Assembly: GCA_027625215.1 (NCBI GenBank)
Contig: JAQBWJ010000001.1
Location: forward strand, 1-48,852
Direction of reading: 5' to 3'
Length of the DNA: 48,852 nucleotides
Source of the DNA: Candidatus Poribacteria bacterium
Lineage (GTDB): Bacteria; Poribacteria; WGA-4E; GCA-2687025
The notes below the pieces were generated by a model that saw only the letters and a list, made by a program, of their open reading frames with translations, ran no database searches and had not been told where the DNA came from. A program made the translations under genes and the position numbers. Below are positions 1 to 28,543 of the stretch, one piece after another (within the stretch, counting starts at the first letter, position 1; the number at the start of each line of letters is the position of its first letter).

Positions 1-85
1 ATCTTCTTCTGTTAATCTCTACATTCCATCGTCGGACTGGCTGCGCCATCCGACTTGGTCGACGGGTGCGACCGCCGAGCCTCGC
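1..85. repeat. Direct repeat copy A of an 85-nt non-coding block (partner 44085-44169)
   Basis: Read directly. 1-78 is identical to 44085-44162, there is one mismatch at 79/44163, the match continues to 85/44169, then the copies diverge. Contains two adjacent hairpins (31-40 with 46-54, one bulge; 57-61 with 69-73). It starts at the window edge, so it may extend further 5'. Confidence 0.9.
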
Positions 86-135
86 GGTTGAAGTTGGCGC
101 TTTGAAGCGGTCGTGCTCGACGGATACAACATTTT

Positions 136-168
136 GATTGACGCAAAGTGTAAGAAATGTTAGAGGAG
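136..168 (+). promoter_or_regulatory. Conserved 33-nt promoter-like block upstream of TPR-like paralog A
   Basis: gattgacgcaaagtgtaagaaatgttagaggag is identical at 44221-44253, although the flanks differ. Reads as TTGACG-N17-TAGAGG, a good -35 and a weak -10. Confidence 0.35.
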
Positions 169-230
169 GGATCAACCGAAATGATTCATGATCGGACGGA
201 AAGACGTTGGTTCACGATAAGGAGGTTGTG

Positions 231-842
231 ATGGCTGGTTCCGAATTCAACCTGCGGGTCGCATGGGCGTTGACCGAAGAGGTCAGAAACTCATACGACA
301 CCGTGTTCGCCGAAGCGCGTCAAAAAGTCCGGGAGGGTAACTCGGAGGGGTTCCTTCAAGGGATCAAGGGAGCGTTTGAGGGTCGCGGGATGATCAACGC
401 CCTGAACGCCGATCTCGGCCGCGCCATCGCGCTCTGCGACGCGATGGGCGCCGGCATGACGATTCCGCACCCGGAGAACCCGGACGTGAAGGTAAGCGCG
501 GCGTCGGTGAAGTCGACGGCGTTGTTCTACAAGGGGATGATCCGTCTGAGTCAGGGCGCGACGCCGGACGCGCTCGAACTGATGAACCAGTCGCTCGCCG
601 TCGAACCGGATCAGTCGACGCTCTACAACATCGGTCTCTGCTTCCTGCAACTGAAAGAGGAGAGGGGCGACCGCGGGCTGGGCGCGAAAGTGCTGGGCAG
701 GACGCTCGCTAAGATGGTGATCTCCGGCTCGGAACAGGTCGATCAGGCGATCGACGCCTTCCGCCAGTGCGTCGAGATGAACTCTGAGAGCGAGATCGGC
801 GTCCGCGCGGGGATGGAACTGGCGCGGCTGGAACAGTTGTAG
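231..842 (+). CDS. Hypothetical helical (TPR-like) protein, paralog A
   Basis: Track ORF 207..842. The ATG at 231 follows AAGGAGG, as in paralog 44316..44951 (both begin MAGSEFNLRVA and end ELARLEQL). Roughly 55-60% identical by eye. No family recognised. Confidence 0.8.
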   Translation: MAGSEFNLRVAWALTEEVRNSYDTVFAEARQKVREGNSEGFLQGIKGAFEGRGMINALNADLGRAIALCDAMGAGMTIPHPENPDVKVSAASVKSTALFYKGMIRLSQGATPDALELMNQSLAVEPDQSTLYNIGLCFLQLKEERGDRGLGAKVLGRTLAKMVISGSEQVDQAIDAFRQCVEMNSESEIGVRAGMELARLEQL

Positions 843-985
843 CCGGCACTGAAACGGTTGTTTCGCAGGGCGGGATTGTGTCCTGTAACGCACACCGAAT
901 CGCGCAGAACCGACATCGGGTTGCCCTGTGTCGCGGTTTGATCGGATCATACCGGTAAGCCGCAGGATTTCCTGAAAGGGGCGAC

Positions 986-1255
986 ATGAACGTTCTGATT
1001 CCCGATGAGGTCGTCCGGTCGATTCATATGACCGAGGAGGAGTTGACGCTCGAACTCGCGCTGCTGCTCTTCGAAAAGGAGAAGCTGACTCTGGCGCAGG
1101 CGGCGCGCATGGTCGGGGTGGATCGCATGGCGTTCCAGCGGGAACTCGCCGAGCGGAAGATCTCCGTGCATTACGATGTCGAGGACTTTGAAGAGGATAT
1201 CGAAACGCTCGAGAGGTTCGGTCAGTGGAGAAGAGTTCCGGCTGTGTGCCGGTAA
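986..1255 (+). CDS. UPF0175-family antitoxin-like protein
   Basis: IPDEVV...TEEELTLELALLLFEKEKLTLAQAARMVGVDRMAFQRELAERKISVHYDVEDFEEDIE matches the UPF0175 pattern. No DUF3368/PIN partner is visible downstream. Confidence 0.7.
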   Translation: MNVLIPDEVVRSIHMTEEELTLELALLLFEKEKLTLAQAARMVGVDRMAFQRELAERKISVHYDVEDFEEDIETLERFGQWRRVPAVCR

Positions 1256-1363
1256 GGTGCTGCACGATAACCTTCTTTCACAGCGGTACCGCTTCGTCCA
1301 ACATCCCCTCACGGATGCTCTCGTTGAATCCGTTTTCGGTCACGCTAGATAGGGTGAACACCA

Positions 1364-1693
1364 ATGACAACGATGGAGACGATAAAGCCGATCACGGAAC
1401 ATCCGTACATCACTCGAAGGGAGGACACCTGCGCGGGCAAACCGATCATCGCCGGAACCCGGATGCGGGTTTCGCAGATCGCGATCGAGTACGAGCGCAT
1501 GGGAAAGACACCGGACGAGATCGTTGAATCCCATCCTCATCTCACGCTTGCACAGGTGCACGACGCGCTGTCCTATTATTACGACCACCTCGATGAAATC
1601 AATGCGGACATCCGCTCCGGCGAGGCGTTTATCGAGGAACTGAAGAAACAGTACGCCGATTCTCCCGCTGAGAGGGAACGGCGTGGCGCTTAG
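1364..1693 (+). CDS. DUF433-family antitoxin-like protein
   Basis: CAGKPIIAGTRMRVSQIAIEYERMGKTPDEIVESHPHLTLAQVHDALSYY is the DUF433 signature. Overlaps the next gene by 11 nt. Confidence 0.8.
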   Translation: MTTMETIKPITEHPYITRREDTCAGKPIIAGTRMRVSQIAIEYERMGKTPDEIVESHPHLTLAQVHDALSYYYDHLDEINADIRSGEAFIEELKKQYADSPAERERRGA

Positions 1694-2024
1694 GGTTTAC
1701 CTGAACGAAAGCGCGGACGTTGCCGTCGCGTCGGGATTGCGGCGTCGGAATATTGACGCATGGTCGGCGCGGGATGTCGGCAATCGCGGACTGAACGACG
1801 AGCAGCAACTTGAGTACGCGATCAAAGAACGCGCCGTGATCTTCACGCATGACGACGACTTTCTTCGGATCGCGCATCAATGGCGACAGCAGAACAAAAC
1901 GCACGCGGGCATCTTCTTTCTTCACGCGGAGCGTCTGTCGATCGGGGAGTCTATACGCCGGATCGTGGAACACGCCGAGCACCGGGATCCCGAAGAGATG
2001 GAAAATCGGATCGCCTTCCTGTGA
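1683..2024 (+). CDS. DUF5615 (PIN/Mut7-C-like) toxin-like protein
   Basis: GTG start. The length and the ...AVIFTHDDDFLRIA... pattern are typical of DUF5615 partners of DUF433. Confidence 0.7.
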   Translation: MALRVYLNESADVAVASGLRRRNIDAWSARDVGNRGLNDEQQLEYAIKERAVIFTHDDDFLRIAHQWRQQNKTHAGIFFLHAERLSIGESIRRIVEHAEHRDPEEMENRIAFL

Positions 2025-2093
2025 CCCCCTTTGCAACGCCTTCATCACCCCGCGCATCACAACGGGTTTCTGATTTCCCTGTGGATATAAAAA

Positions 2094-2119
2094 GCCCTGC
2101 GAGGAACGACCTGCAGGGC
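2094..2119. terminator. Hairpin between convergent genes (bidirectional terminator candidate)
   Basis: gccctgc (2094-2100) pairs with gcagggc (2113-2119). Preceded by an A-run and followed by a T-rich stretch. Lies between 1683..2024(+) and 2145..2915(-). Confidence 0.5.
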
Positions 2120-2144
2120 ATGGTTTGAGGTGGAACGGCTGCGT

Positions 2145-2915
2145 TCAGAACTGCGCTCCGAGACATCGCTTGAAGTGTTCGCAGTTCCGACAGCCGTATT
2201 GATATTCCAGGTTTCGGGGAAACGCCTCACGTTCGATCGCGTCGGCGACTTCGCACGCCATCAGACAGAACCGTCGGAAGTCTTCCGGATCGCGGCGGGT
2301 GCGCTTGACGTCGATCTTTGGCGTCTTCGTCTTGGTGAGCGTCACGAGGGCGATCTCGTCGGGCATCGTCCCGTAGAGGTAGGCGAAGCCGAGGGCGTAG
2401 GCGGTCAGCTGGATGTCGTTGTCCACATCCGACTGCGACGCGGCTCTCGACGAGACCTTGAACTCCCACAGCGTGTTGTCCGACACGAGGTCGATCCGAC
2501 CGTCCAGCGTGTGTTTCGACGAACCTTCTCCGCTGACCGGATCGAGCACGGGAATCTCGAAGAGCAGTTCCACGTCGGTCGGTTTGACCTCGGCGAACTG
2601 CGCGACGTAGAGCTCCGCAAAGGCGGTCGCCATCGAGGAGTACACCTCCATGTCCGACTGCTTGAACCGCACCTCCCTGCCGAAGCGCATCGCGTCTTCG
2701 AGTTCCGCGTCCCAGTAGAGACGATAGAACTCGAAGACCTGCTCCGGCGTCAGGGCGTTCTTCGCCTGATGGAACTCCGAGATCGCGTAGTGCATCGCGG
2801 AACCGTAGACCATCTCGGCGGAGAGGAACTCGGGTTCGGCGCGCTCGACATACCGGAAGCGGTACTGTCGCCCGCACGCGAGATAGGTTCGGAGTCGCGT
2901 CACGGAAAGAATCAT
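2145..2915 (-). CDS. PD-(D/E)XK exonuclease, Cas4/RecB-like, with 4-Cys cluster
   Basis: N-terminal Cys (YLACGRQY) plus C-terminal CRNCEHFKRC (C-x2-C-x5-C). Also has GRIDLV...WEFK (D...ExK) and a QLTAY motif. Confidence 0.8.
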   Translation of the reverse strand: MILSVTRLRTYLACGRQYRFRYVERAEPEFLSAEMVYGSAMHYAISEFHQAKNALTPEQVFEFYRLYWDAELEDAMRFGREVRFKQSDMEVYSSMATAFAELYVAQFAEVKPTDVELLFEIPVLDPVSGEGSSKHTLDGRIDLVSDNTLWEFKVSSRAASQSDVDNDIQLTAYALGFAYLYGTMPDEIALVTLTKTKTPKIDVKRTRRDPEDFRRFCLMACEVADAIEREAFPRNLEYQYGCRNCEHFKRCLGAQF

Positions 2916-2933
2916 CTGTATCCGTCCTTTCCG

Positions 2934-3587
2934 TCAGAACGAGGCGGCGTCATCAGCGTCCGGTTCGCCCGCATCGAGGTGTTTCTTCAGTTCGTTGATG
3001 AGGGTGGACGCCTGCGTCTGGTTCAGGGAGGCGACGTCGGTCGTGCGGAACAGCTGATCCGACATCCCGCGCACGTCGTCCTGCGACCAGCCGAGATCGG
3101 TGCGCAGCCGCTTGATGTAGGCGATCTGCTTCTCGGTGATCCCGCCGACGGTGCGCGAGGTCGTTCGCGGTTGAGATTGCCGCGAGCCGTTTCGCGCTCC
3201 GCGACTTTCGGGCACGGTATCCTCCTCATCCGAGAGGAGATGCAGCCCGATCCCGAACAGCTGACAGCATTTCTTGAAGCCGTCCGAGATCGCCGCTTTC
3301 GTGTCGTCGCCGAGGCAGAAGGCGTTGCCTTCCTTGTCGCGCGTGACGTGTTTGCTTCCGGCTTGGGTTTTCGCGACGCCGGAGGCGGTCACTTTGACGA
3401 TCGCGACGATTTCATCCTCGCCGCGTTCCACCTTGATGACGTCGTTGGACCAGTCGTAGCCGAACGCCTCGTTCATCCGTTCGATGTAGGACTTGAGCGG
3501 GGCGTAGGTGATCGGTTTGCCGTACGAGCCGGGACGGGATTTCAGTTCCGATGGTTCGAAGGGTTGTTCGATGATTTCGATGTTCAC
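2934..3587 (-). CDS. Rad52/Sak-like single-strand annealing protein
   Basis: N-terminal half (KSRPGSYGKPITYAPLKSYIERMNEAFGYDWS...DDTKAAISDGFKKCCQLFGIGLHL) fits the Rad52/22 pattern. The C-terminal tail is unassigned. Confidence 0.65.
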   Translation of the reverse strand: MNIEIIEQPFEPSELKSRPGSYGKPITYAPLKSYIERMNEAFGYDWSNDVIKVERGEDEIVAIVKVTASGVAKTQAGSKHVTRDKEGNAFCLGDDTKAAISDGFKKCCQLFGIGLHLLSDEEDTVPESRGARNGSRQSQPRTTSRTVGGITEKQIAYIKRLRTDLGWSQDDVRGMSDQLFRTTDVASLNQTQASTLINELKKHLDAGEPDADDAASF

Positions 3588-3669
3588 CGTGACGTTCCTT
3601 TCATGCGTTGACGTTCAGGGGGCGTTCGATGCCGAGACGTTGCGCCGTGGCGGGCGTCTCCTTTCCTGG

Positions 3670-4116
3670 TCAGCGAAACAGTTCGGGATGAGATTCGGCG
3701 AGTGACGTGTAGGAGTCGCGCCCGACGATCAGGTGATCGACGAGCGGAATGTCGAGAAGCCGTCCCGCTTGGGCGACTCTCTGCGTTCCCGCAAGGTCTT
3801 CTCGCGACGGTTCCGGGTCGCCGGAGGGGTGGTTGTGCGCCAACGTGATCGCGGAGGCGTTCTCCCGAATCGCCGTGCGGAACACGTCGCGCGGGTGCAT
3901 CATCGTGCAGTTGAGCGTGCCTTTGCTGACGCACTCGACCGTCACGAGCGAGGACTTCGCGGTCAGGCAGACGACGAGAAGGTGTTCCTGCTCTTCGCCT
4001 TCGAGCGTCTCGCGGACGAGATCGTAGAGTTGTTTCGGCGTGGAGAGCGATTCCGGTCGGTAGAGTCTTTGCGCCTCGAACAGGCGGGGCTGGACGTGGT
4101 ACGGGTACGCGTTCAC
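3670..4116 (-). CDS. radC: RadC-like JAB-domain protein
   Basis: The HNHPSGDPEPSREDL JAMM motif and the length are typical of RadC. Confidence 0.85.
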   Translation of the reverse strand: MNAYPYHVQPRLFEAQRLYRPESLSTPKQLYDLVRETLEGEEQEHLLVVCLTAKSSLVTVECVSKGTLNCTMMHPRDVFRTAIRENASAITLAHNHPSGDPEPSREDLAGTQRVAQAGRLLDIPLVDHLIVGRDSYTSLAESHPELFR

Positions 4117-4295
4117 ATCGAGTGGTCTCCATTGGCTGCGTGGTCGGGGTAATCGGTAGCGTGAGGTTGTTCTGCGGCTTCCCGGAGCAGTCGGATCGCT
4201 TCGGTGAGAAACGATGACGCCTGCTCGTAGTCCTCGAACTCCTCAACAGCGTCGTACTCGTCGAGGAAGTCGCGGATGCGATTGGTGAGGGACAT
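4113..4295 (-). CDS. Small acidic hypothetical protein
   Basis: 60 aa and D/E-rich. Its stop overlaps the radC start by 4 nt. Same strand as its neighbours. Confidence 0.45.
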   Translation of the reverse strand: MSLTNRIRDFLDEYDAVEEFEDYEQASSFLTEAIRLLREAAEQPHATDYPDHAANGDHSM

Positions 4296-4314
4296 GAGTC
4301 GTGCCTCCCTCCCG

Positions 4315-4659
4315 TCAGTAATCGGACGGATAGAGGAACGTCAGCCCGTCGCCGTCCAAGATGACCCAGTACTGCTCGCGCAGAACGCGCAGCTTCATCG
4401 CGTCGGTGTCCTCCGGGTCGGGCTGGGCGAGTGCATGGACACCTTCGCGGATGAGGGCGTCGCGCTCCGTCTCGTCTTGGAAGTCGGCGAACAGCGCGGC
4501 GGTGAAGCAGATCGTGACGGATGTGCCGGGTCGTTCGGGCGTTTGTGGTCGGACGAGCGCGCCGACCTGGACGAGCGTCCCATCGGCAATCGCTTCCTCG
4601 CGGGTGTAGGTATGGACCGATTCGCCCCAGAAATCATCGGAGGCTGGTTCCGTCGCCAT
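4315..4659 (-). CDS. Hypothetical protein (conjugative-element-associated type)
   Basis: 114 aa with good GC3 bias. The pattern YTREEAIADGTLVQV is common next to radC in mobile elements. Family not named with certainty. Confidence 0.6.
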   Translation of the reverse strand: MATEPASDDFWGESVHTYTREEAIADGTLVQVGALVRPQTPERPGTSVTICFTAALFADFQDETERDALIREGVHALAQPDPEDTDAMKLRVLREQYWVILDGDGLTFLYPSDY

Positions 4660-4816
4660 CGGTTTGTCCTTTCGGTTGAAACCTGGAATCGAGTTGTCAA
4701 AGATCGGGTAGGTTCATCATGGGCGAGGGAAGGCAGGCGTACCAGAAGGGAGAAAATAACGGAAACGGGAACCTTTCCTCCCTTTATGCGGTGGGAAACG
4801 TCCGTATGATGAAGAC

Positions 4817-5983
4817 GTGAACGACCTGTGCATCTTCGGGCAAACGAATTGGCGGGATCAGCGGAAGAAGTTCGGGATAAGGCGGGCGGATCGCCGCTAT
4901 CACCTCCACCTGATCGGCAAGACCGGCGTTGGGAAGTCGACGCTCCTGGAGCACCTGATCGCGTCCGACCTGCGCGACGGTCACGGACTCGCTGTCCTCG
5001 ATCCGCACGGCGACCTCGTGAAAAGCGTCCTGCGCCATGTCCCGAAGGAGCGTGCGGACGACCTCCTCTACTTCGATCCGACCAACGTCCGCAGCGCGAT
5101 CCCCTTCAACATCCTGAAAGACCACTACGCGCACCGCTACCTGATCGCCTCCGGCATCCTGTCGGCGATGAAGAAGGTCTGGGGCGACTCCTGGGGTCCG
5201 CGCATGGAACACATCCTCCGGTACACACTGTTGGCGTTGCTGGCATATCCCGACGCGACGCTGATCGACGTGCCGCGCATCCTGCTGGAAAAGGCGTTCC
5301 GGCAACGGGTGCTGTGCTACGTCGAGGACACGCAGGTGAGGGCGTTCTTTGAGGATGAGTTCGCCAAGTACGCGAGCCGCTTTCAGAACGAAGCGGTCTC
5401 GCCGATCCTCAACAAGGTCGGCGGCTTCCTCGCGAACCCGTCACTGCGACATCTGTTTCAGCAGAAGGAGAACCGCTTGCAGTTCCGTCCGATCATGGAC
5501 GGCAGGAAGGTGTTCCTGGCGAATCTGGCGAAAGGTTCGTTGGGCGAGGATTCAAGTTCGTTGCTGGGCGCATTGATCCTGTCGCAGATCGAGCTCGCGA
5601 CGCTGAGCCGCGCGGACGTACGGGAAGAGCAGCGGCGACCGTTCTATCTCTATGTGGACGAGTTCCAGAACTTCGCGACGACCAGTTTCGCGGGGATGCT
5701 CTCGGAGGCGCGGAAGTACGGACTGTCGATCACGCTCAGCCATCAGACGCTCGGACAGCTGGACGACGACGTGCGACACGCCGTCTTCGGGAACGTCGGG
5801 ACGCTCATCTGCTTTCAGGTGGGCGCGGAGGACGCGGAATACCTCGAGAAGGAGTTTCAGCCGACGTTCCGGCGGGAGGACCTGACGAACCTGTCGCGTC
5901 ATCAGTTCTACGTCAAGATGATGGTGAACGGCGTCGTCAGCGAGCCGTTTTCAGCGACGACGTTGACACCGCAACCCGGATGA
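4817..5983 (+). CDS. TraD/VirD4-like (T4SS coupling-protein type) P-loop ATPase, soluble
   Basis: Walker A GKTGVGKS, Walker B FYLYVDEFQNF, and SITLSHQTLGQL. Paralog of 42255..43945. Confidence 0.8.
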   Translation: MNDLCIFGQTNWRDQRKKFGIRRADRRYHLHLIGKTGVGKSTLLEHLIASDLRDGHGLAVLDPHGDLVKSVLRHVPKERADDLLYFDPTNVRSAIPFNILKDHYAHRYLIASGILSAMKKVWGDSWGPRMEHILRYTLLALLAYPDATLIDVPRILLEKAFRQRVLCYVEDTQVRAFFEDEFAKYASRFQNEAVSPILNKVGGFLANPSLRHLFQQKENRLQFRPIMDGRKVFLANLAKGSLGEDSSSLLGALILSQIELATLSRADVREEQRRPFYLYVDEFQNFATTSFAGMLSEARKYGLSITLSHQTLGQLDDDVRHAVFGNVGTLICFQVGAEDAEYLEKEFQPTFRREDLTNLSRHQFYVKMMVNGVVSEPFSATTLTPQPG

Positions 5984-5993
5984 GACGTCAAAA

Positions 5994-6011
5994 GCCCTCC
6001 TCGAGGAGGGC
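5994..6011. terminator. Perfect palindrome after the ATPase gene (bidirectional terminator candidate)
   Basis: gccctcctcgaggagggc starts 11 nt after the stop at 5983, flanked by aaaa and gttt. Lies between convergent genes. Confidence 0.6.
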
Positions 6012-6086
6012 GTTTGGTACGTCGGGTTCAGCAATGGAGATCAGATCGACGCAGACAGGTCGACGACAAATCGGTTCTTCCGCGCC

Positions 6087-7145
6087 TCATCGAATAGCGC
6101 GCGGAGTGTTTCCGTCTGCCGTTTTCCAAAGTCGGTTCGTCCGAAGAAACGCCGCGACCTCTTCCTCATCGGAGGCGCTCGATACGGCACCGCGAATCGC
6201 CGACGACGTGAGTCCTAACACCGCGTGCGGACGACACGGCTTCCCGTCCGCCGTCACATCCACCAGGTTCGTGAACAGGATCATCTTGACCAGTCCGTCC
6301 TTGATGTCGCCGAGACTCGGCAGAGGTTCCCGCGACGAATGCTTCTTCTCGATCAGATAGAGGTCGTCGCCCTCCAAATGGAACTCGTCCGCCGTGAAGT
6401 AGTACTCCCCGCCGAGGTAGTTCTCGATCGTGATCGTCGCCTTGTCGCCGGAGACGGACTCCTTCGGTTGGGTGGTAACCGACTCTCGCTGCTGAGCGCT
6501 CTCCGCGCCGATACGCGACCGGTCCTTGAACGCCTCCGCGCTCCGGCGGATCAGCTCGATGCGACGGTGCGCGCCTTTCGGATTGTGCGTCTGGACGCCC
6601 GTCTGCTTCGAGATGCGTTCGTAGGCGGTCACCGCCTTCTCCCACACCTCTGGTAGGTGGACTTCCAACTCGTGCAGGTTCCAGTGCAGCGCGCTCGACT
6701 TATAGGCGAGCAGTTCATCGAGTCGTCCTCTGAGATGCGCCGTGTCGAAACGGAACGAGGTGATCTTGTCCTCGTAACGGGGGTTCCTCTCGGCGTCCGC
6801 GTAGTAGCCGAGCACAACGTAGACGTTGAGCAGACTCATCAGCGAGACGGTGTCCCACTGGAGGAAATCGCTGTCGCCGTCCTGCCCCTCGTCCTTCCAG
6901 ACGGGGATGATCGTCACGGGGAACAGGGAGTCCATCGAATCGTAGACGCGGGCGTACGGGTAGCTCCGTGTCCGCTTGGGCGAGACCCAATGGCTGACCG
7001 TCAGCTTCCGTCCCCGGTAGTTCAGGTGAAACGTCCCTCGACGGAACGCCTCACCGGACAGGAAGGCGTCGATCCCGTGCGTCGGCAGTTGGGCGCACAT
7101 CGTCGGCGCATAACGGACGTTCTCGATGCGGGCGCGGATGGTCAT
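6087..7145 (-). CDS. Putative type II restriction endonuclease
   Basis: Start overlaps the methyltransferase stop by 4 nt. ADEF...LIEKK gives a D-x13-ExK arrangement. No named family recognised. Confidence 0.55.
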   Translation of the reverse strand: MTIRARIENVRYAPTMCAQLPTHGIDAFLSGEAFRRGTFHLNYRGRKLTVSHWVSPKRTRSYPYARVYDSMDSLFPVTIIPVWKDEGQDGDSDFLQWDTVSLMSLLNVYVVLGYYADAERNPRYEDKITSFRFDTAHLRGRLDELLAYKSSALHWNLHELEVHLPEVWEKAVTAYERISKQTGVQTHNPKGAHRRIELIRRSAEAFKDRSRIGAESAQQRESVTTQPKESVSGDKATITIENYLGGEYYFTADEFHLEGDDLYLIEKKHSSREPLPSLGDIKDGLVKMILFTNLVDVTADGKPCRPHAVLGLTSSAIRGAVSSASDEEEVAAFLRTNRLWKTADGNTPRAIR

Positions 7146-8167
7146 GCCGCGCGAGGTAGGCCCTCCTTGTCGGAGTCACCGCTGTTGAAAAGTCGCCCTT
7201 GATGGAGTTGCGCGTTCAGTCGTTCCCGCGCGTAGTCGAGGTATTCCTTCGCCGTGTCGATGCCGATGTGCCGCCGCCCGAGCTTCTCCGCGGCGAGGTT
7301 CGTCTGTCCGCTGCCCGTGAAGATATCCAGCACGAGGTCGTCCTTGTATGCGTAGAACTCGACGACCCGCTCGACGAGTTCCAGCGGGTACGGGCAGGGG
7401 TGAAGGTTCTCCTGCGGCGCCATCGGGCGGATCTTCCAGACGTTCTTGGACTTCTCGCCCTGATAGTCGGACAGGTCGATCCGGTTCGCCTCCTTTTCCT
7501 CCTTCGAGCGGCGGGCGTAGATGTTGTCGCGCTTCTTGGAGTCCGTCGTCTTCTGAAAGACAAAGATGTACTCCGCGACAAGGCTCGGATAGTAGTAGCC
7601 GGGATAGGGATGTTGGAGGAGCAGTCCGGAGCGGCGGTCTCTGGCGACCGGCTTCTCCCAGACGATGTCCTCCTTGAACGTCCAGCCGATCTCCTCCATC
7701 CAGCCGACGAAGTGGAACGGCAGCGCCGTCCGCTTTCCCTGCCAGAGGACGGGGGCGATGTTGACGACGTTGTGACCGCCGGGCTGGGTGATCCGCAGCA
7801 ATTCCTTGAAGCGGGCTTTCAGGAAGTCGCGGTACTCGTCGTAGGAGACCTCCGTCCGCTCCCAGTGATCTGTCTTGCCGTTGAGTTTGTCGCGGTGTCC
7901 GTCGTAGTTGATCGCGTTGAAGTAGGGCGGTGACGTGACCGCAAGGGTGATGAGGTTGTCCGGGAGGCTTTGCATCACGGCGAGGCAGTCGCCGAGGACG
8001 AGATGTCCTCGTCCGACTGGAGAGACCTCGAAATGACGGACGCAGGCGTCAAGGAGATCGGATGAGGTCTGTGGTTGGACCGCCGGTGAGCTTTGGAGTT
8101 GTGTGATCGGATCGGACATGAATGGGTGGGCGCGGATTCCGGAACCCGCGCGGTGATGTGCGTTCAC
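7142..8167 (-). CDS. DNA methyltransferase, beta-class N4/N6 (SPPY, likely m4C)
   Basis: Motif IV TSPPYFNAINY lies N-terminal to motif I DIFTGSGQT. The true start may be M17 at 8119. Confidence 0.85.
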   Translation of the reverse strand: MNAHHRAGSGIRAHPFMSDPITQLQSSPAVQPQTSSDLLDACVRHFEVSPVGRGHLVLGDCLAVMQSLPDNLITLAVTSPPYFNAINYDGHRDKLNGKTDHWERTEVSYDEYRDFLKARFKELLRITQPGGHNVVNIAPVLWQGKRTALPFHFVGWMEEIGWTFKEDIVWEKPVARDRRSGLLLQHPYPGYYYPSLVAEYIFVFQKTTDSKKRDNIYARRSKEEKEANRIDLSDYQGEKSKNVWKIRPMAPQENLHPCPYPLELVERVVEFYAYKDDLVLDIFTGSGQTNLAAEKLGRRHIGIDTAKEYLDYARERLNAQLHQGRLFNSGDSDKEGLPRAA

Positions 8168-8171
8168 CCTA

Positions 8172-8684
8172 TCACAGATCGTGCCGCTTGTGGAGGGCAG
8201 TCACGGCAAGCGCGACGGCGAACGCCGCCGTCCATCCCTCCGGCAAGCCGTTGAGAGGTGCGCGTCGCGTCGGTTGGCGGAGCAGGGGGAATCGCGTTTG
8301 GGTCGCTTCCAGCAGGTTGATGTGTGTCGCGTCCGAATCGCCGCACAGGACGCGCTTCGCTTCGGACAGGGAGACGCGCGTGATGCGGACGCCGGGCAGG
8401 AGTTCCGGTCGAATCGCCTCGTCGAGCGTCCGTCGGAGCACGCCTGAGGATGCCGGATCGTCATCGACCGCTTCGGCGGCGACCGTGACGTGACCAACGT
8501 CGGGGATCGACTCGCTCACGAGTCGAGGAACGATCCGCTGCAATAGGGGCGGCGTCTTGCGTCCGCGCACCGTCCTGACACCGAACCGAACAAGCCCATC
8601 CCGCTCGAAGACCGCGAAGCCGGTCTCCCTCCCACGGGCGAACAGTCCGACGATGATTTCCCTCCGGTCTGTCATAGTCTCCAT
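8172..8684 (-). CDS. RuvC/RNase-H-fold-like protein, probably catalytically inactive
   Basis: Colinear by eye with RuvC: IIVGLFARGRETGFAV against ILGIDPGS..GYGV, AAEAV against AIEQV, and C-terminal AVALAVTALH. The first and last acidic residues are replaced. Confidence 0.35.
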   Translation of the reverse strand: METMTDRREIIVGLFARGRETGFAVFERDGLVRFGVRTVRGRKTPPLLQRIVPRLVSESIPDVGHVTVAAEAVDDDPASSGVLRRTLDEAIRPELLPGVRITRVSLSEAKRVLCGDSDATHINLLEATQTRFPLLRQPTRRAPLNGLPEGWTAAFAVALAVTALHKRHDL

Positions 8685-8720
8685 GAACGTATGAACGTCA
8701 TGAACATGCGGGCGGTCGCG

Positions 8721-10124
8721 CTATGCCGACGGCTCCGATGTTTCCGACGTTGGTTCTGTCGAGTCCTCAGGCGTTTCCGACTCCTGCGGCACGTTCATCA
8801 TGTTCATACGTTCATCTCGTGATTCCGGCGCTTTCAGCCCAAATCGTTCCATCAACCGCTCGACCTTGGGGTGCTCGCTCTCCGGGATCACGTAGCCCTC
8901 CATCCTCCGCTCCGTCTTCAGGTGGAGTTTCCGCCGGATCAGACTCCCGATCCACTTTGGATTGATCTTCTTGTCGTAGTCGTCCTCGTGCTTCTCCTTG
9001 AACCGCTCCGCGATCTCGCCGACGGAGACGACTTCCTCGCGTTCCCGCAACTCGGCGATCACCTCGAGCAGATGTCCTTCGATGTCCATGCCCTTGTCGG
9101 AGATGTATTGCCGGTGGTACTCCCGCATCGTCGCCTTCAGGTCGGACAGCGTCTCTTCGTCGTCGATGATGCTCAATAGCGGTACGAACACCTGATTCAT
9201 GCGCGGCTCGATCGAGCGATCCACCAAGTCGGGCGAGGCGTGATGCTTCCCAACGTGGCGAAACCGGAACATGAGAAGACGATTGCGGATCGCCGTCGCC
9301 TCGTCCCAGAAAACGTCCGGCAGGTTGATCGGCACGTCGTCCCGAAGCCGCCGCTGTCCCATTTCCTCGGTCAGACACCGGCTTTCCAGCGCGCGGTCGG
9401 CGAAGAGGCTCCGCGTCCCGATCAGTTTTGGACCGTAGACATGGTAGGCGCGCGGGTTGTACTCCTTGCCGTTGGTCGTCTCGCTCCGCAGGACGGGGAA
9501 CCCCTTCGCGTTCCCGTTGTTGAAGATTTTGACAATTTCCGCCTTCTCGTCGGACTGGCGGAAGTCGCCCTCGTCGATCAGCAGCGTTCCCTTGAAGATG
9601 TCGAGGATGCGGAACAACGGCGAGACGGTGGATGCGCCGCTGGCGAAGATCGGCTTGTAGCAGAGGGAGCCGACCGTCAGCAGAAAGCGCGTCTTGCCAC
9701 TGCCGGCGTCACCCAGGACGCGCAGGTAGGGGAGTTCGTTGAAGTCGTCGTAGATCCACGTCAAGAGGACATAGTAGGCGCAGAGCCGCTCGAAGGTCGG
9801 CGTCACATCGACGTAGCCGTGCAGGAAGTCCTGAATCGCCGACAGCAACTCCGCTTCGGAGTCGTATTCGACCGGCTCCGTTGGCAGGAGGACGATCCGA
9901 TTGCGGATCAGGTTGTTCTTCGGCGAATACGGGAGGAGCGTTTCGCCGTTGGGAAGCGCCATCCGATCAAGGAGTTTCCAAGCACCGTCGGTAAAGACCG
10001 CGTAGCCCGATTTTTCGCCGTCGTAGAGCATCTCGCCGACCGTTCCGTCGTCCAGACGGAAAGACGGCGTCACCGTGACGTTCTTATGCTTATAGTCCTT
10101 TGAGGTGATCCGTTTGAGAGCCAT
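8721..10124 (-). CDS. P-loop NTPase of unknown family (possible SF3-like replication helicase)
   Basis: Walker A LGDAGSGKT, Walker B TLLIDEGDF, followed by IFNNGN. Has a winged-helix-like acidic C-terminus. Confidence 0.7.
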   Translation of the reverse strand: MALKRITSKDYKHKNVTVTPSFRLDDGTVGEMLYDGEKSGYAVFTDGAWKLLDRMALPNGETLLPYSPKNNLIRNRIVLLPTEPVEYDSEAELLSAIQDFLHGYVDVTPTFERLCAYYVLLTWIYDDFNELPYLRVLGDAGSGKTRFLLTVGSLCYKPIFASGASTVSPLFRILDIFKGTLLIDEGDFRQSDEKAEIVKIFNNGNAKGFPVLRSETTNGKEYNPRAYHVYGPKLIGTRSLFADRALESRCLTEEMGQRRLRDDVPINLPDVFWDEATAIRNRLLMFRFRHVGKHHASPDLVDRSIEPRMNQVFVPLLSIIDDEETLSDLKATMREYHRQYISDKGMDIEGHLLEVIAELREREEVVSVGEIAERFKEKHEDDYDKKINPKWIGSLIRRKLHLKTERRMEGYVIPESEHPKVERLMERFGLKAPESRDERMNMMNVPQESETPEDSTEPTSETSEPSA

Positions 10125-10133
10125 AGGGTGGGG

Positions 10134-10430
10134 TTAATCGTCGTAACGCACGTCGCGGTGGACGCGATTCGCCCGGTCTTTCAGTTCCTCGATCGCGTAC
10201 ATGAACGTCCGGGCATCGACGAGCGCCTTTGGTCCGATCTGAAACTGTCGCACAAGCTGCATCCGCTCGGCGGCGTCCTTGAAGCCGAATCGGTGCCGTC
10301 CCCAAGCGTCCGTTTCCGCTGTCGAGAGCCACATGCCGTGCGCGACGAGGAACGCGGCAAGATAGAGCGAGTCCGTGTGGAACGTGCCCGGCGTCGTGTA
10401 CGAGGATGGTTGTCGGTCAGGCTTTGTCAT
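10134..10430 (-). CDS. DUF5659-like small protein
   Basis: The real gene is the last 98 codons of track ORF 10134..10922 (start MTKPDRQ). FHTDSLYLAAFLVAHGM...ARTFMYAIEELK fits DUF5659. Confidence 0.65.
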   Translation of the reverse strand: MTKPDRQPSSYTTPGTFHTDSLYLAAFLVAHGMWLSTAETDAWGRHRFGFKDAAERMQLVRQFQIGPKALVDARTFMYAIEELKDRANRVHRDVRYDD

Positions 10431-10744
10431 TGGATAGCTTGGGATGGCTTGTTGCGGCGGGATTCGATCTTCTTCCGCTCCATCCGCACCCCGTCCAGCG
10501 CGCGGCGTCGGATGTCGGGGAACAGGAACGCGACCGGCGCGCAGAGCACGACCTCCAACTTGATCGCCGTCTCGAGGCTGGGAAGCCGTTTGCCGCGTTC
10601 GTAGGCGGAGATGTGCGTCGCGGAGCGGTAGCCGAGCAGTCGAGCGACCTCCCGCTGCGTGTACCCCATCTTCTTCCGATGAATCCAGAGTCGGTTGGCG
10701 GTGAGGGAGCCGGGTTTCGATGTGTTGCGTCGTTGTGCGCACAT
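10427..10744 (-). CDS. XRE-family HTH regulator
   Basis: MGYTQREVARLLGYRSATHISAYERGKRLPSLETAIKLEVVL is an HTH_3 pattern. Start taken at M18 of track ORF 10427..10795. Overlaps the next gene by 4 nt. Confidence 0.8.
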   Translation of the reverse strand: MCAQRRNTSKPGSLTANRLWIHRKKMGYTQREVARLLGYRSATHISAYERGKRLPSLETAIKLEVVLCAPVAFLFPDIRRRALDGVRMERKKIESRRNKPSQAIQ

Positions 10745-10870
10745 GTCGTTCAGAATACCGCACCGACGGAGACAAAAAAGAGGGGAAAAGTTCACGGAGG
10801 CGGGAACATCGGACGGACATCGAGGAGCCGGCGTGAACGCTCGATGCGATTTGACAGACCGCGTTCGACC

Positions 10871-11518
10871 ATGCTATGCCGAGACGCGATGCGAAAAGCG
10901 AGAAAAGGACGCAAACGACCACAAAGAGGACAATCCGTCAACCCATGGCCCGATCTCGTCACGCTGTGGGCGTTGGAGGACGACGGACGACGCCGAGACC
11001 GCGTTCTCGCCCGCCACAGCCTTCTGATGACGGTCATCGAGCGGACATCGCTGGAACGGTTCCGTCAGGCGCTGGGCGATCCTCAAACGGACTGGCGATT
11101 TCACCTCGACGCCGGGATCGGATACGACCTCGACCGCCTTCAGGAGAGGATGGGAACGGCATACGGAACGGGAACGCTGAATCGGAACGACCTGATCGCG
11201 CATACCATGCCGCTCCATGACCGCGCCCTCGAAGCGTTGGGCAACGCGCGGCGAGTCGCTCGACAGGACGGCAACACAGACGAACGGATGAACGTTGGAC
11301 AAGCGCTGCTCGATGCCACCGAAAGCCTCTACGACCGGATCGAACGTGTGATCGACCGGAAGTCCCATGAGCATTTTCTTGCCGACGGACTGTCCAAGAC
11401 CCAAGCGTGGCTGGAGCGTCACGCCGACCATCACGGGAAAGTCGCCGCGCAGCGAGATCGCCTGCGGTCCGCGCAACAGCGTCACAGGGACGACCGCGCT
11501 CCACAGCAACCCGCTTGA
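10871..11518 (+). CDS. Hypothetical protein upstream of the serine recombinase
   Basis: Only the 3' part of track ORF 10406..11518 has strong GC3 bias. Candidate starts are 10844, 10871 and 10889. A TTGACA lies at 10851-10856. Confidence 0.5.
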   Translation: MLCRDAMRKARKGRKRPQRGQSVNPWPDLVTLWALEDDGRRRDRVLARHSLLMTVIERTSLERFRQALGDPQTDWRFHLDAGIGYDLDRLQERMGTAYGTGTLNRNDLIAHTMPLHDRALEALGNARRVARQDGNTDERMNVGQALLDATESLYDRIERVIDRKSHEHFLADGLSKTQAWLERHADHHGKVAAQRDRLRSAQQRHRDDRAPQQPA

Positions 11519-11551
11519 GCGATTTCGTCCGTCTGTTATGCTGAAGCCGAC

Positions 11552-13753: not shown

Positions 13754-14326
13754 AAACATCGGCATACCGAATCGGGGAAGTTCTCCCCGCTACCGCGCGT
13801 CGGATCGGGATGTCACGATGAGGACATGGAGTTTCAACGGATCGTCCTCATTCCGTTCGATCAGCCGGAAGCGGAGCATCGGCGGCGGGTGCGGGAGGCG
13901 TACTACGTCCTGATGCGCGCAACGGCGCGACACATGGGGAAGACGAACGCGGCGGCATCGTCGGAAGGCGGCGCACCTTCACCACGGCACGATGATCTGG
14001 ACGACGGCGCGGGTCGATGACGGTGACGCCGAGCCGGTGGTAGATGTCCCAGACGATCATGTTCCGCAGGGGGTCGTCTTGCCGACGCCGGATATGCCGA
14101 AACTGGAGATGTGCCGTCGCTCGCCGACTTTGAGAAGGACGCGGCGGGAGCGAATCCAAGCCGCGCCCGTTGTTGTGTATGCGCCCGGCGGCCGAAGTCG
14201 CGCGGACCGGACGTTCCGGGGCTCTCCTTCCGCCTTCGCCGCAGACGGGAAACGAGCGTCGCCCGACATTCTTGGAAGCAAGCGAAGCCGCGAACGGCTC
14301 CGTCCTCTGAAGGATGAGAAGGAAAT

Positions 14327-14438
14327 GGGCGAACAACCCAACCCGAAACCCGATGTTGTTGTTCCAGTTGTTCGGGTGGTTGTTGTTGCGATTCGCGCAC
14401 GCAGCCCTGTCGCGATTGTTGTTCCACGAACCGCCGCG
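14327..14438 (-). repeat. DGR template repeat (TR)
   Basis: 112 nt aligning to 16041-16152 without gaps. The minus strand encodes RGGSWNNNRDRAACANRNNNHPNNWNNNIGFRVGLFA. It lies 47 nt downstream of avd. Confidence 0.9.
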
Positions 14439-14485
14439 CACTACCTCACCGGAAGCCCGACGGTGGAACCCGCCGCGATCCGAGA

Positions 14486-14869
14486 CTACCGTTCGTCTCC
14501 TCCGATCGCAACGCTTTCTTTCGAGATCGTTTGCGCCGATGCGCCGGTCTGCCGAAGCCAACCACCCAGCAAGCGACCGATTTCCTCGATCATTCGGCTG
14601 ACGTGTTCGTATTGACCGGCGGAGAGCCATTTCCATTGATGGGAGAGCCGGAGATAGAGCCGGAGCGTGTTCAAATAGGCGTCCGCCTCGTGTAAGCGGG
14701 CGAGACGTTCCTCGCGCCGGAGCGCGTTCGCGTGGAACAATGCCTCCTGGAAATCGAGGGCGGCGTCCATCAGACGTCGCGTGACGACGAACCGTTGCGC
14801 TTTGGGGAACTTGTCGGCGACGGGAAGAAGCCACGTCAGCAGATCGAAGGTTCGCGCGAATATGACCAT
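14486..14869 (-). CDS. avd: DGR accessory variability determinant (four-helix-bundle protein)
   Basis: [48 protein letters not shown]... is the Avd (23S-IVS four-helix-bundle) pattern. Start taken at M27 of track ORF 14486..14947 (127 aa). Confidence 0.8.
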
Positions 14870-15977: not shown

Positions 15978-16040
15978 CCTTTCGCCAAAATTTTTATGTT
16001 TCAAGAGTTCAGAGTTATCAGAGATCAGAGGATCACTGAG

Positions 16041-16152
16041 GGGCGAACAACCCAAACCGAAACCCGACGTAGCTGTCCCCGCCGCTCGGGAGGGAGCCGC
16101 CGCGATCCGCGCACGCAGCCCAGACGCGAATGACGTTCCACGAACCGCCGCG
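16041..16152 (-). repeat. DGR variable repeat (VR)
   Basis: 22 mismatches to the TR. 20 of them fall on the 28 TR adenines and 2 do not. Encodes RGGSWNVIRVWAACADRGGSLPSGGDSYVGFRFGLFA. Confidence 0.9.
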
Positions 16153-16164
16153 CCGCGCTTTCCA

Positions 16165-17640: not shown

Positions 17641-17689
17641 CGCTCCGTCCTCCCGTCCGGTGTGTCGTGAACGAACACATCAGTAGACT

Positions 17690-28541: not shown

Positions 28542-28543
28542 GG

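What the first reader, a model, noticed from the sequence alone, without database searches (positions are those of the whole stretch)
1..230. Perfectly conserved 85-nt structured block plus promoter block in front of two diverged paralogs, bracketing about 44 kb
1-78 is identical to 44085-44162 and the match continues to 85/44169 with one mismatch. A second 33-nt block (136-168 and 44221-44253) and the first 32 nt or so of the downstream CDS are also nearly identical. The rest of the intergenic DNA and the two proteins (231..842 and 44316..44951) have diverged to roughly 55-60% identity. This is the opposite of neutral duplication, so the block is either constrained or recently exchanged. It carries two adjacent hairpins. 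Copy B lies in the divergent region next to the coupling-ATPase/Replication-relaxation operon, which is a classical oriT position. Alternatives are an att site for tandem element accretion (three recombinase genes lie between the copies) or a structured 5' leader or small RNA.
Basis: partly seen in the sequence, partly recalled or inferred. Interest (0 to 1): 0.6.

Follow-up and report, generated by a model that had tools for sequence, protein, structure and literature searches.

The report
Plasmid transfer-origin hairpin block, read twice
The 85-base block is a real, structure-conserved two-hairpin element beside the DNA-transfer genes of an uncultured marine bacterium's plasmid, most likely part of its transfer origin, and its apparent duplication 44 kb apart probably reflects a circular plasmid with a swappable or recombining gene cassette.

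Summary
The sequence observation holds. Positions 1-78 equal 44085-44162, 136-168 equal 44221-44253, and the two TPR genes are about 59% identical with dS about 0.74.

The window is a whole contig of a fragmented genome bin, and copy A starts exactly at the contig end.

The contig is a Rep3/iteron plasmid. Copy B lies between a coupling-ATPase/Replic_Relax (MOBC-type relaxase) operon and a small TPR gene. Three rare relatives have the same layout.

Across these relatives the block is only 52-56% identical, yet both hairpins persist through compensatory changes. All six imperfect pairs are A·C on the plus strand and G·T on the minus strand. The working single strand is therefore the one sharing the sense of the transfer operon.

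Best reading: this is the hairpin/nick core of a MOBC-type oriT, possibly also the operon leader.

The duplication itself is uncertain:
- One independent assembly joins 44084 directly through the block to copy A's downstream DNA.
- Another assembly breaks exactly at block base 78.
- No assembly shows the junction that a tandem two-copy molecule requires.

Either two direct copies recombine, or one site carries alternative cassettes.

An att site, a known RNA family and plain neutral duplication are not supported. Interest is moderate to low.

The parts
1..85 (-). Block R, copy A, at the contig end. It contains the conserved motif TCCATC (25-30), hairpin 1 (31-54: GTCGGA-C-TGGC/TGC/GCCA-TCCGAC) and hairpin 2 (59-78: TCGACGG/GTGCGA/CCGCCGA). 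The functional strand is inferred to be the minus strand.
   Evidence: The contig end is shown.
44085..44169 (-). Block R, copy B. It contains the motif at 44109-44114, hairpin 1 at 44115-44138 and hairpin 2 at 44143-44162.
   Evidence: It is homologous to L006:9665-9750, L014 and L016.
43946..44084 (-). The part of the copy-B intergenic region nearest the T4CP gene, seen only at copy B and in L099. It holds five short [AG]TA[AT] repeats at 43958, 43969, 43982, 43993 and 44004, spaced 11-13 nt apart. It also holds a promoter-like site, TTGATA-16-TAGGAT, on the minus strand at 43999-43972, and the family-conserved motif TGCGCGGAGTTGTAT at 44070-44084.
   Evidence: Lag-11 autocorrelation gives p=0.04.
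136..168 (.). 'Promoter block', copy A. The plus-strand reading is TTGACG (138-143), a 17-nt spacer and TGT-TAGAGG (158-166). The minus-strand reading is TTGATC (175-170), a 17-nt spacer and TACACT (152-147).
   Evidence: Read from the sequence; it is below the threshold of the promoter scan.
44221..44253 (.). 'Promoter block', copy B, identical to copy A at 33/33.
231..842 (+). TPR-A gene, 203 aa. It is the orthologue-like copy, 63-68% identical to the TPR genes of L006, L014 and L016.
44316..44951 (+). TPR-B gene, 211 aa. It is the divergent copy, 50-52% identical to the relatives and 59.5% identical to TPR-A.
42255..43945 (-). VirD4/TraD-like coupling ATPase (T4CP), 68% identical to the intact 557-aa L006 protein. 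It is split by a 1-nt deletion near 42900.
41357..42232 (-). Replic_Relax (PF13814, MOBC-type) putative relaxase with a conserved PD...E-x-D-R motif.
   Evidence: PMC5357655; PMC3424549.
19792..21575 (+). Iterons (seven copies, 22-nt period, 19792-19997) and the Rep3 initiator gene (20079-21575). Together they form the plasmid replicon.
79..2088 (+). Cassette YA: TPR-A, UPF0175, DUF433 and DUF5615. It sits between the block and the backbone, which resumes at about 2089-2164.
44163..48852 (+). Cassette YB-Z: TPR-B, a 133-aa ORF, a C39 peptidase, a PD40 protein and a 3'-open ORF. In two related plasmids the last ORF lies next to the PDDEXK gene that corresponds to window 2145-2915.

Best explanation
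Block R is the inverted-repeat (two-hairpin) core of the transfer-origin and control region of a mobilisation module. The module consists of a VirD4-like coupling ATPase and a PD-(D/E)XK 'Replic_Relax' relaxase of the MOBC type.

Shown:
- The block sits at the same place in three other rare plasmids, between the start of the coupling-ATPase gene and a small divergent TPR gene.
- Its primary sequence drifts (52-56% identity) while both hairpins are kept by compensatory changes.
- The pairing is complete only on the minus strand, which has the same sense as the transfer operon.

Inferred:
- After nicking or melting, the minus strand folds into the two hairpins. The relaxosome recognises them, and the nick falls in or beside the conserved GAT[GA]GA stretch just 3' of hairpin 1 on that strand.
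- The relaxase docks on the short direct repeats about 100-200 nt away, next to the ATPase gene, as described for pAD1 TraX.
- The same stretch may also be transcribed as the operon leader.

Why the block is perfectly identical in front of two diverged TPR genes: I do not think 78 positions are each selected. The block is the fixed backbone edge of a variable cargo slot. Two topologies are possible. In the first (about 45%), two direct copies flank a 4.8-kb segment in one circle and recombine, by relaxase action or homologous exchange, and this keeps them identical and produces the 44,084-bp form seen in L099. In the second (about 40%), there is one copy per molecule with two alternative downstream cassettes, and the assembler strung both onto one contig.
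For: Context:
- Replic_Relax at E 1.2e-21, T4CP domains, Rep3 and iterons.
- PF13814 corresponds to MOBC in CONJscan, and such elements carry their own VirD4-type coupling protein (PMC5357655, PMC12479173).

Conservation:
- The layout T4CP + relaxase, then R, then TPR gene is the same in L006-L013, and R is also present in L014 and L016.

Structure:
- In 70 hand-aligned pair cells the plus strand has 64 Watson-Crick pairs and 6 A·C mismatches. The minus strand has 64 Watson-Crick pairs, 6 G·T pairs and no mismatches.
- Six of the 9 hairpin-1 pairs and 1 of the 9 hairpin-2 pairs change on both sides.
- DNA-fold z-scores are -4.35 and -3.84 on the minus strand against -2.46 and -2.91 on the plus strand for L006 and L016.

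Relaxase binding site:
- Five to six short repeats with 11-13 nt spacing lie beside the T4CP start in the window and in L006.
- pAD1 TraX binds five direct repeats 70-120 bp from nic (PMC12857230).
- TraX and other relaxases recombine oriT copies (PMC5714925).

Concerted identity:
- R is 84/85 between A and B but 52-56% against relatives, while the TPR genes have dS 0.74.
- TPR-A groups with the relatives and TPR-B lies outside them.

Topology:
- L099 joins XB-R-YA.
- L102 ends at R base 78 and L100 starts at R base 24.
- The related plasmids C289 and L101 place the window's last ORF next to the PDDEXK gene at window ~2145.
Against: - No nick site, relaxase binding or transfer has been shown. 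There is no sequence similarity to any characterised oriT, and the region and the relaxase are essentially absent from PLSDB.
- Only four independent lineages support the covariation. The strand asymmetry rests on about 4-6 events, roughly p 0.02-0.06 if transitions are equally likely either way.
- The periodicity of the direct repeats is weak (p 0.04 and 0.07).
- The adjacent T4CP gene carries a frameshift in all four assemblies, so the module may be decaying.
- G·T-tolerant pairing on the operon-sense strand fits an RNA leader at least as well as transferred single-stranded DNA.
- If the minus strand is the transferred strand, the transfer genes would enter the recipient first, which is unusual.
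- The oriT reading does not explain the two further identity islands (the promoter block and the translation start).
- Neither topology fits everything. The contig starts at R base 1, whereas this assembler's usual overlap is 69 nt. That implies a second left-hand context and favours two copies. In contrast, YA and YB genes were recovered from different samples, and the endORF-R-YA junction was never seen. That favours alternative cassettes.
Confidence: 0.45

Rival explanations
1. R is an RNA element: the structured 5' leader of the coupling-ATPase/relaxase mRNA. Transcription would start at a minus-strand promoter inside the 'promoter block' (TTGnnn-17-TAnnCT, conserved in all four lineages). 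It would run leftward through R, where the two hairpins control stability, termination or translation of the transfer operon. This can coexist with an oriT role.
For: - All six imperfect pairs are G·U-compatible on the minus strand only, and the minus strand folds better.
- The family-invariant bases of the promoter block fall on a minus-strand -35 TTG and a -10 TA..CT with a 17-nt spacer in the window, L006, L014 and L016. This was read from alignment A2.
- R lies between that site and the ATPase start codon.
Against: - The minus-strand promoter scores 8/12 and is not called by the scan. The only site the scan calls lies closer to the gene, at 43999-43972, downstream of R on that strand.
- There is no Rfam family, even at E<=1.
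- There is no terminator-like T run.
- An RNA leader gives no reason for a second copy detached from the operon.
Confidence: 0.25
2. The duplication is not real in any single molecule. The contig is a walk round a circular plasmid that picked up two alternative alleles of the cargo region downstream of one R site. The '78-nt perfect repeat' is then just shared backbone written twice. This concerns topology, not function.
For: - L099 shows XB-R-YA with otherwise identical sequence.
- L102 ends exactly at the last shared base and L100 starts 55 nt before it.
- YA genes were found only in the window, in sample ...948 and in run SRR2027830. YB genes were found only in the window and in sample ...961.
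- The endORF-R-YA junction is seen nowhere.
- Both cassettes end where the backbone resumes, at window ~2089-2164.
Against: - In this bin 22 contig ends carry exactly 69-nt overlaps, whereas C31 starts with the whole 78-nt repeat. That is what a site with two entries and two exits in the assembly graph gives, and it is not what a simple bubble gives.
- The Logan contig L098 starts at 139, which is a k-1 overlap on the 33-nt island. L102 stops at the branch. Both show that the two right-hand contexts co-occur within single runs.
- Even if this rival is true, the two further identity islands inside diverged sequence still need recombination or constraint to explain them.
Confidence: 0.4
3. R is a double-stranded operator. 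The two imperfect palindromes would bind a dimeric plasmid regulator, for example the HTH domain of the relaxase or the HTH_17-like protein, which controls the divergent promoters. Both copies would stay identical because one protein reads both.
For: - Inverted repeats with coordinated changes in both half-sites are also what a dimer-bound operator shows.
- R lies between divergent genes.
- The promoter and translation-start islands are identical as well, which suggests shared regulation.
Against: - A duplex operator has no reason for the strand asymmetry, in which every imperfect pair is A·C on the plus strand and G·T on the minus strand.
- The loops and the 30-nt AT-rich 5' part are also identical between A and B yet drift freely between plasmids. 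Co-evolution with one protein does not explain 78/78 identity.
Confidence: 0.1
4. R is an att core. Direct repeats would have been left by integrase-mediated tandem accretion of two elements.
For: - In contig coordinates, identical direct repeats bound a segment that carries one serine recombinase and two tyrosine recombinases.
- A junction contig equivalent to an excision product exists (L099).
Against: - No tRNA or tmRNA is present.
- No recombinase gene lies next to either copy.
- Diverged homology continues about 870 nt to the right of R and includes paralogous genes.
- The same block sits at the same intergenic place in single-copy relatives.
- The two tyrosine recombinases are short, at 175 and 192 aa.
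Confidence: 0.03

Closest known systems
oriT2 / TraX relaxase (MOBC) of Enterococcus faecalis plasmid pAD1
   Same: - The relaxase is a PD-(D/E)XK-type enzyme with an N-terminal winged HTH, next to a TraG/VirD4-like coupling protein.
- The origin lies in the intergenic region beside these genes.
- The architecture combines an inverted repeat with a set of about five short direct repeats located 70-120 bp from nic (PMC12857230).
- The relaxase is reported to recombine oriT copies (PMC5714925).
   Different: - There is no detectable sequence similarity in the origin, and only family-level similarity (PF13814) in the relaxase.
- The host phylum is different.
- Here there are two short hairpins rather than one large inverted repeat.
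- Nothing has been tested biochemically.
- The coupling-protein gene is frameshifted.
CloDF13 mobilisation region (MobB coupling protein + MobC relaxase)
   Same: It is a mobilisable plasmid that carries its own coupling protein together with a MOBC relaxase and has no mating-pore genes. The window likewise shows no VirB4 or pore genes.
   Different: The plasmid here is much larger and uses a Rep3/iteron replicon. There is no sequence similarity in the oriT. A second, N-terminally shorter T4CP paralogue lies at 4817-5983.
Relaxase-mediated recombination between directly repeated oriT copies (R388 TrwC, R64 NikB, pAD1 TraX; pBMB0228 cointegrate)
   Same: Two identical origin cores in direct orientation flank a segment. 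A contig corresponding to the deletion or closure product exists (L099).
   Different: That both copies lie in one molecule is unproven here. Homologous recombination or an assembly ambiguity across 78 nt would give the same contigs.
oriT mimics on non-mobilisable staphylococcal plasmids and 'minimal hitcher' islands
   Same: A near-identical origin core is embedded in otherwise unrelated or diverged DNA, which could explain identity confined to short islands.
   Different: Here the flanks are diverged homologues (58-72% identity), not unrelated DNA. The promoter and start-codon islands are also identical.

Membership tests
oriT of a MOBC-type (pAD1 TraX / CloDF13 MobC) mobilisation module | A cognate MOBC relaxase (PF13814, PD-(D/E)XK fold with an N-terminal HTH) is encoded next to the site. 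| tested here: met
   Window 41357-42232 matches PF13814 at E 1.2e-21. A PD...E-x-D-R motif is invariant in 7 homologues. The equation of PF13814 with MobC is taken from PMC5357655; I did not run CONJscan.
oriT of a MOBC-type (pAD1 TraX / CloDF13 MobC) mobilisation module | A VirD4-type coupling protein lies in the same operon. | tested here: met
   The gene has a 1-nt deletion near 42900 in all four assemblies.
oriT of a MOBC-type (pAD1 TraX / CloDF13 MobC) mobilisation module | A relaxase binding site made of about five short direct repeats lies 70-120 bp from nic, with an inverted repeat at nic (PMC12857230). | tested here: inconclusive
   Five [AG]TA[AT] repeats lie at 43958-44004 and six lie in L006, spaced 11-13 nt apart, about 105-200 nt from the hairpins. 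Lag-11 autocorrelation gives only p 0.04 and 0.07.
oriT of a MOBC-type (pAD1 TraX / CloDF13 MobC) mobilisation module | Sequence similarity to a characterised oriT. | tested here: not met
   The 370-nt intergenic region has no match in PLSDB. The relaxase has only one 30% match there.
oriT of a MOBC-type (pAD1 TraX / CloDF13 MobC) mobilisation module | Strand- and site-specific nicking by the relaxase, and cis-acting mobilisation. | not testable with these tools
   This needs nick mapping and mating assays.
Structured single-stranded nucleic-acid element (conserved secondary structure) | Base pairs are maintained by compensatory changes across homologues. | tested here: met
   Seven pairs show changes on both sides, and 64 of 70 cells are Watson-Crick pairs with the rest G·T on the minus strand. 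Only four lineages are available.
Integrase att site / tandem element accretion | A short identical core at both element ends, an adjacent integrase, and flanks unrelated beyond the core. Such sites are often the 3' end of a tRNA gene. | tested here: not met
   There is no tRNA. Homology continues for about 870 nt. No recombinase lies beside R. Single-copy relatives carry R at the same place.
Known RNA family (Rfam 15) | A covariance-model match at the gathering score. | tested here: not met
   There were 0 hits in the whole window. At E<=1, only one noise hit, outside R, was found in 43900-44400.
Sigma-70 promoter (the 33-nt 'promoter block') | -35 and -10 hexamers with 16-18 nt spacing, matching at least 9 of 12 positions, with A at position 2 and T at position 6 of the -10. 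| tested here: inconclusive
   The scan calls it on neither strand. By eye the plus strand reads TTGACG-17-(TG)TAGAGG and the minus strand reads TTGATC-17-TACACT. The family-invariant bases map to these elements.

The most novel reading that the evidence does not exclude
R is an oriT core that also serves as the recombination site of a cassette-exchange system. The MOBC relaxase, or recombination initiated at the nick, would insert and delete cargo segments bounded by R copies, here the 4.8-kb TPR-B/C39/PD40 segment. Plasmids of this family would then swap the genes immediately beside the origin, each cassette bringing its own diverged TPR gene under an identical promoter and start region. This would be an origin-linked counterpart of integron-like cargo turnover.
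Probability: 0.12. Interest if true: 0.6.

Novelty: new member of a known kind. Interest (0 to 1): 0.35.

Why it matters
MOBC-type relaxases are the least understood relaxase class, and almost nothing is known about plasmids of uncultured marine lineages. If the reading is right, this gives a candidate MOBC oriT outside Firmicutes and Enterobacteria. It also makes a clear, testable prediction: two hairpins that function on the operon-sense strand. In addition it is a natural case in which an origin marks the edge of a polymorphic cargo slot. For the scan, the practical lesson is that a perfect repeat touching a contig end should first be read as an assembly-graph branch point.

Tried and rejected
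- tRNA/tmRNA scan and Rfam, at the gathering score and at E<=1: nothing.
- Exact 45-mer of R in genome contigs: nothing.
- Degenerate promoter-block pattern: one likely chance hit in a Saprospiraceae MAG in genome contigs (L017, not followed up), and none in metagenome contigs or viral contigs.
- TPR protein in genome contigs and in 60 relatives: no real homologue.
- Among 5.8 billion proteins, only three other TPR homologues exist.
- PLSDB searches with the intergenic DNA and with the relaxase: essentially empty.
- NCBIfam gave nothing specific.
- TPR structure prediction had mean pLDDT 65.8, and Foldseek returned only generic TPR folds, none with E<0.001. The protein's function stays unknown.
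- I planned a covariance model of R but dropped it. MAFFT could not place the window's hairpin 2 in structural register, and four sequences give little power. Pairs were counted by hand in a script instead.
- Search for the junction upstream of copy A: no other contig in the bin holds R. No assembly holds the full-length last ORF or a PD40 contig running past the window end.
- The contig's 3' end has no informative overlap.
- A literature search for the sample codes found nothing.
- Francia et al. 2013 (PMC3746933) is not held.
Full report
OBSERVATION

- Positions 1-78 are identical to 44085-44162, and the only mismatch up to position 85 is at 79.
- 136-168 equals 44221-44253 (33/33).
- The ribosome-binding site plus the first 32 nt of the CDS match at 47/49.
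- The spacers in between are 58% and 64% identical, and the rest of the CDS is 70% identical.
- At 70% background identity, a 78-nt identity run is expected about 2e-10 times.
- Overall homology runs from 1-855 to 44085-44964 at 72%. It fades about 110 nt after the stop codons, and nothing beyond that is similar.
- The proteins are small TPR proteins, 59.5% identical over aligned positions, with dS 0.74 and dN/dS 0.42.

One fact changes how all this should be read. The window is the whole of contig C31 in a 708-contig, 61%-complete bin, and copy A starts at contig base 1.

WHAT THE CONTIG IS

The contig is a plasmid, or at least plasmid-like.
- It has seven 22-nt-period iterons in front of a Rep3 initiator gene.
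- It carries toxin-antitoxin pairs, PDDEXK/Rad52/RadC genes and a methyltransferase.
- It carries a serine recombinase and two short tyrosine recombinases.
- It carries caspase-like genes and insertion-sequence remnants.

Directly left of copy B, on the minus strand, lie a VirD4/TraD-like coupling ATPase (T4CP) and a Replic_Relax protein (PF13814, E 1.2e-21).
- CONJscan recognises PF13814 as the MOBC relaxase superfamily, and such elements typically bring their own VirD4-type coupling protein (PMC5357655, PMC12479173).
- The fold is PD-(D/E)XK with an HTH domain (PMC3424549).
- Seven homologues keep an invariant PD...E-x-D-R motif.
- No mating-pore genes were seen, so the element looks mobilisable rather than self-transmissible.

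RELATIVES

The TPR protein has only three other homologues among 5.8 billion proteins. Their contigs (L006-L016) come from marine metagenomes. Where the contigs are long enough, the layout is the same: two Replic_Relax genes and a 557-aa T4CP on one strand, and the TPR gene diverging from them.

The intergenic regions align.
- R is homologous in L006, L014 and L016 but only 52-56% identical.
- The 33-nt block is about 50% identical.
- The spacer between them varies from 14 to about 140 nt.
- A motif TGCGCGGAGcTGTaT just left of R, and TC[CT]ATC just before hairpin 1, are conserved.

The T4CP family itself is large (824 hits with E<=1e-20) and spans many phyla. The more distant members lack the TPR gene. 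Qualitatively they still show TGTAT-like repeats beside the T4CP start and a GC-rich hairpin 100-150 nt further upstream.

STRUCTURE

I aligned the hairpins structurally by hand and counted pairs in a script.
- Hairpin 1 has 9 pairs plus a bulged C. Six of its nine pairs differ on both sides between the window and the relatives, for example T-A to G-C and G-C to C-G. One further site shows the series G-C, A·C, A-T.
- Hairpin 2 has one double change.
- Of 70 pair cells, 64 are Watson-Crick. The six exceptions are all A·C on the plus strand, which makes them G·T on the minus strand. The minus strand has no mismatch at all.
- Folding agrees: the minus strands of L006 and L016 reach z -4.35 and -3.84, against -2.46 and -2.91 for the plus strands.

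The selected structure therefore belongs to the strand with the sense of the T4CP/relaxase operon. It could act either as transferred single-stranded DNA or as RNA. With four lineages and perhaps 4-6 independent events, this is suggestive rather than proven.

A purely duplex operator would not show this strand asymmetry. The block also has no terminator-like tail and matches no Rfam family.

oriT READING

For the MOBC prototype pAD1 TraX, the relaxase binds five direct repeats 70-120 bp from nic (PMC12857230).
- Here, five [AG]TA[AT] repeats spaced 11-13 nt apart lie at 43958-44004. Six lie in L006.
- They sit next to the T4CP start and overlap the only promoter-like site the scan calls, TTGATA-16-TAGGAT on the minus strand.
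- They are about 105-200 nt from the hairpins.
- The periodicity signal is weak (p 0.04 and 0.07).

Position, gene context, hairpins and repeats together make an oriT the best single reading. Nothing here shows nicking or transfer.

An RNA-leader role is a serious rival and could coexist with the oriT role. The family-invariant bases of the '33-nt promoter block' fit a plus-strand promoter, TTGAC-17-(TG)nA, pointing at the TPR gene. They also fit an overlapping minus-strand promoter, TTG-17-TAnnCT, pointing through R towards the operon (read from alignment A2). Neither reaches the scan's threshold.

WHY THE BLOCK IS IDENTICAL

R drifts at roughly the neutral rate between plasmids, so purifying selection cannot hold 78 of 78 positions fixed, loops and the AT-rich 5' part included. 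The gene tree also conflicts with the block: TPR-A groups with the relatives (63-68% identity), while TPR-B lies outside all of them (50-52%), yet R is identical in front of both. The identity must therefore come from recombination, or from the two 'copies' being one and the same locus.

TOPOLOGY

Three independent assemblies disagree exactly at R.
- L099 (sample SAMN03444948) is a scaffold whose middle contig runs from window 43343 through 44084, then through R with the A-type G at position 79, and on to window 1814. It is otherwise identical to the window apart from two SNPs and two N gaps. It closes 1..44084 into a 44,084-bp circle.
- In sample SAMN03444961, the 20-kb backbone scaffold L102 is 100% identical to window 35357-44162 and ends at the last base shared by A and B. 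L100 starts 55 nt before that base and continues into TPR-B as far as 47742.
- The Logan contig L098 (run SRR2027830) equals window 139-2259. It therefore begins with a k-1 = 30-nt overlap on the 33-nt island, which implies that both right-hand contexts exist in that run.

Other observations bear on this.
- Exact-sequence look-ups find YA genes only in the window, L099 and L098. They find YB genes only in the window and L100.
- No assembly holds the 3' end of the last ORF or a junction from it into R.
- Two related plasmids, C289 in the bin and L101 (which equals C251+C322), place the homologue of the window's last ORF right next to the PDDEXK gene corresponding to window 2145-2915. One has a TA pair in between, and the other only 92 nt.
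- So the contig end and the contig start are neighbours on a circle, and the stretch between R and about 2089-2164 is a variable cargo slot.

This leaves two models.
- (a) Tandem two-copy plasmid. The ~49-kb plasmid reads T4CP, R, TPR-B...endORF, R, TPR-A..., and its two R copies recombine to give the L099 form. In favour: 22 contig ends in this bin carry exactly 69-nt overlaps (the assembler's k-1), whereas C31 begins with the entire 78-nt repeat. That is what a site with two entries and two exits in the assembly graph produces.
- (b) One R per molecule. Each plasmid has one R and either cassette, and the assembler concatenated both. In favour: only XB-R-Y junctions have ever been seen, and the two cassettes were recovered from different samples.

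I put (a) at about 45% and (b) at about 40%. Either way, 'bracketing 44 kb' is the long way round a circle, since the two copies are at most about 4.8 kb plus a small gap apart.

WHAT REMAINS UNEXPLAINED

Two further islands of identity, the 33-nt block and the translation start (including its synonymous sites), sit inside 58-64% identical DNA. Short-patch gene conversion seeded in already conserved functional elements would explain them. So would repeated allelic recombination with crossovers in those elements. Shared regulators alone would not.

The role of the TPR proteins is unknown. The model has pLDDT 65.8 and matches only generic TPR folds.

COMPARISON AND VERDICT

The closest known systems are the MOBC origins of pAD1 and CloDF13, and relaxase-mediated recombination between repeated oriT copies (PMC5714925). 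Membership in the MOBC oriT class is supported by the gene context and is inconclusive for the repeat architecture. It is unsupported by sequence similarity and untested for function.

The att-site reading is rejected for four reasons: no tRNA is present, no integrase lies beside R, homology extends far beyond R, and single-copy relatives carry R.

The finding is a real, conserved element and a probable new member of a known kind. Its most eye-catching feature, a perfect repeat 44 kb apart, largely reflects how a polymorphic or recombining circular plasmid was assembled.

Noticed in passing
window 42890-42910 (minus strand): The coupling-ATPase gene next to R has a 1-nt deletion relative to the intact 557-aa L006 protein: GGGC[C]AACTC, where ILGQLVVSKF becomes ILGN + frameshift. 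This splits it into ORFs of 417 and 196 aa. The same sequence is present in three other assemblies (L099, L102, L103), so it is a real lesion or a recoding site rather than an error of one assembly.
   Followed up: partly
window 4817-5983 (+): There is a second T4CP-like gene of 388 aa, 36-39% identical to the first. It lacks the N-terminal ~120 residues. Copies 91% identical lie on other contigs of the bin (C251, C557). It might substitute for the frameshifted gene.
   Followed up: no
own genome contigs C289, C251, C322, C557, C411; loci L101, L100: The bin holds fragments of at least two further related plasmids, 70-88% identical in DNA to parts of the window. C411 ends in a 69-nt exact overlap with the window's relaxase gene (41490-41558), then diverges to 83% identity. 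This suggests mosaic plasmid variants sharing backbone segments.
   Followed up: partly
whole bin (contig ends): Twenty-two contig ends have a best exact terminal match of exactly 69 nt elsewhere in the bin. This is the signature of a de Bruijn assembler overlap (k-1 for k=70) and helps in judging any repeat that touches a contig end in this genome.
   Followed up: yes
L007-L009, L011-L013 (downstream of the TPR gene): Six of eight contigs carrying the L006-type TPR gene end 118-405 nt after its stop codon, while L006 and L010 continue. The DNA just downstream of the TPR gene therefore looks heterogeneous or repeated in that plasmid population too.
   Followed up: no
L006:6007-7856: The L006-type plasmid has two tandem Replic_Relax genes that are only 23% identical to each other. 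The window has one.
   Followed up: no
window 903-950 and 45029-45076: A 48-nt stretch downstream of both TPR genes is 73% identical (core CGGGTTGCCCTGTGT). It is not shared with L006, L014 or L016. So A and B are closer to each other in their 3' flanks than their protein tree suggests.
   Followed up: partly
loci L027-L097: T4CP homologues with 33-39% identity are very common in Patescibacteria/CPR genome bins (Saccharibacteria, Paceibacterota and others).
   Followed up: no
L099:485-494 / window 43336-43404: The scaffold gap in L099 and the end of Logan contig L103 (window 43404) both fall within about 70 nt inside the T4CP gene. This hints at a locally hard-to-assemble or variable spot.
   Followed up: no
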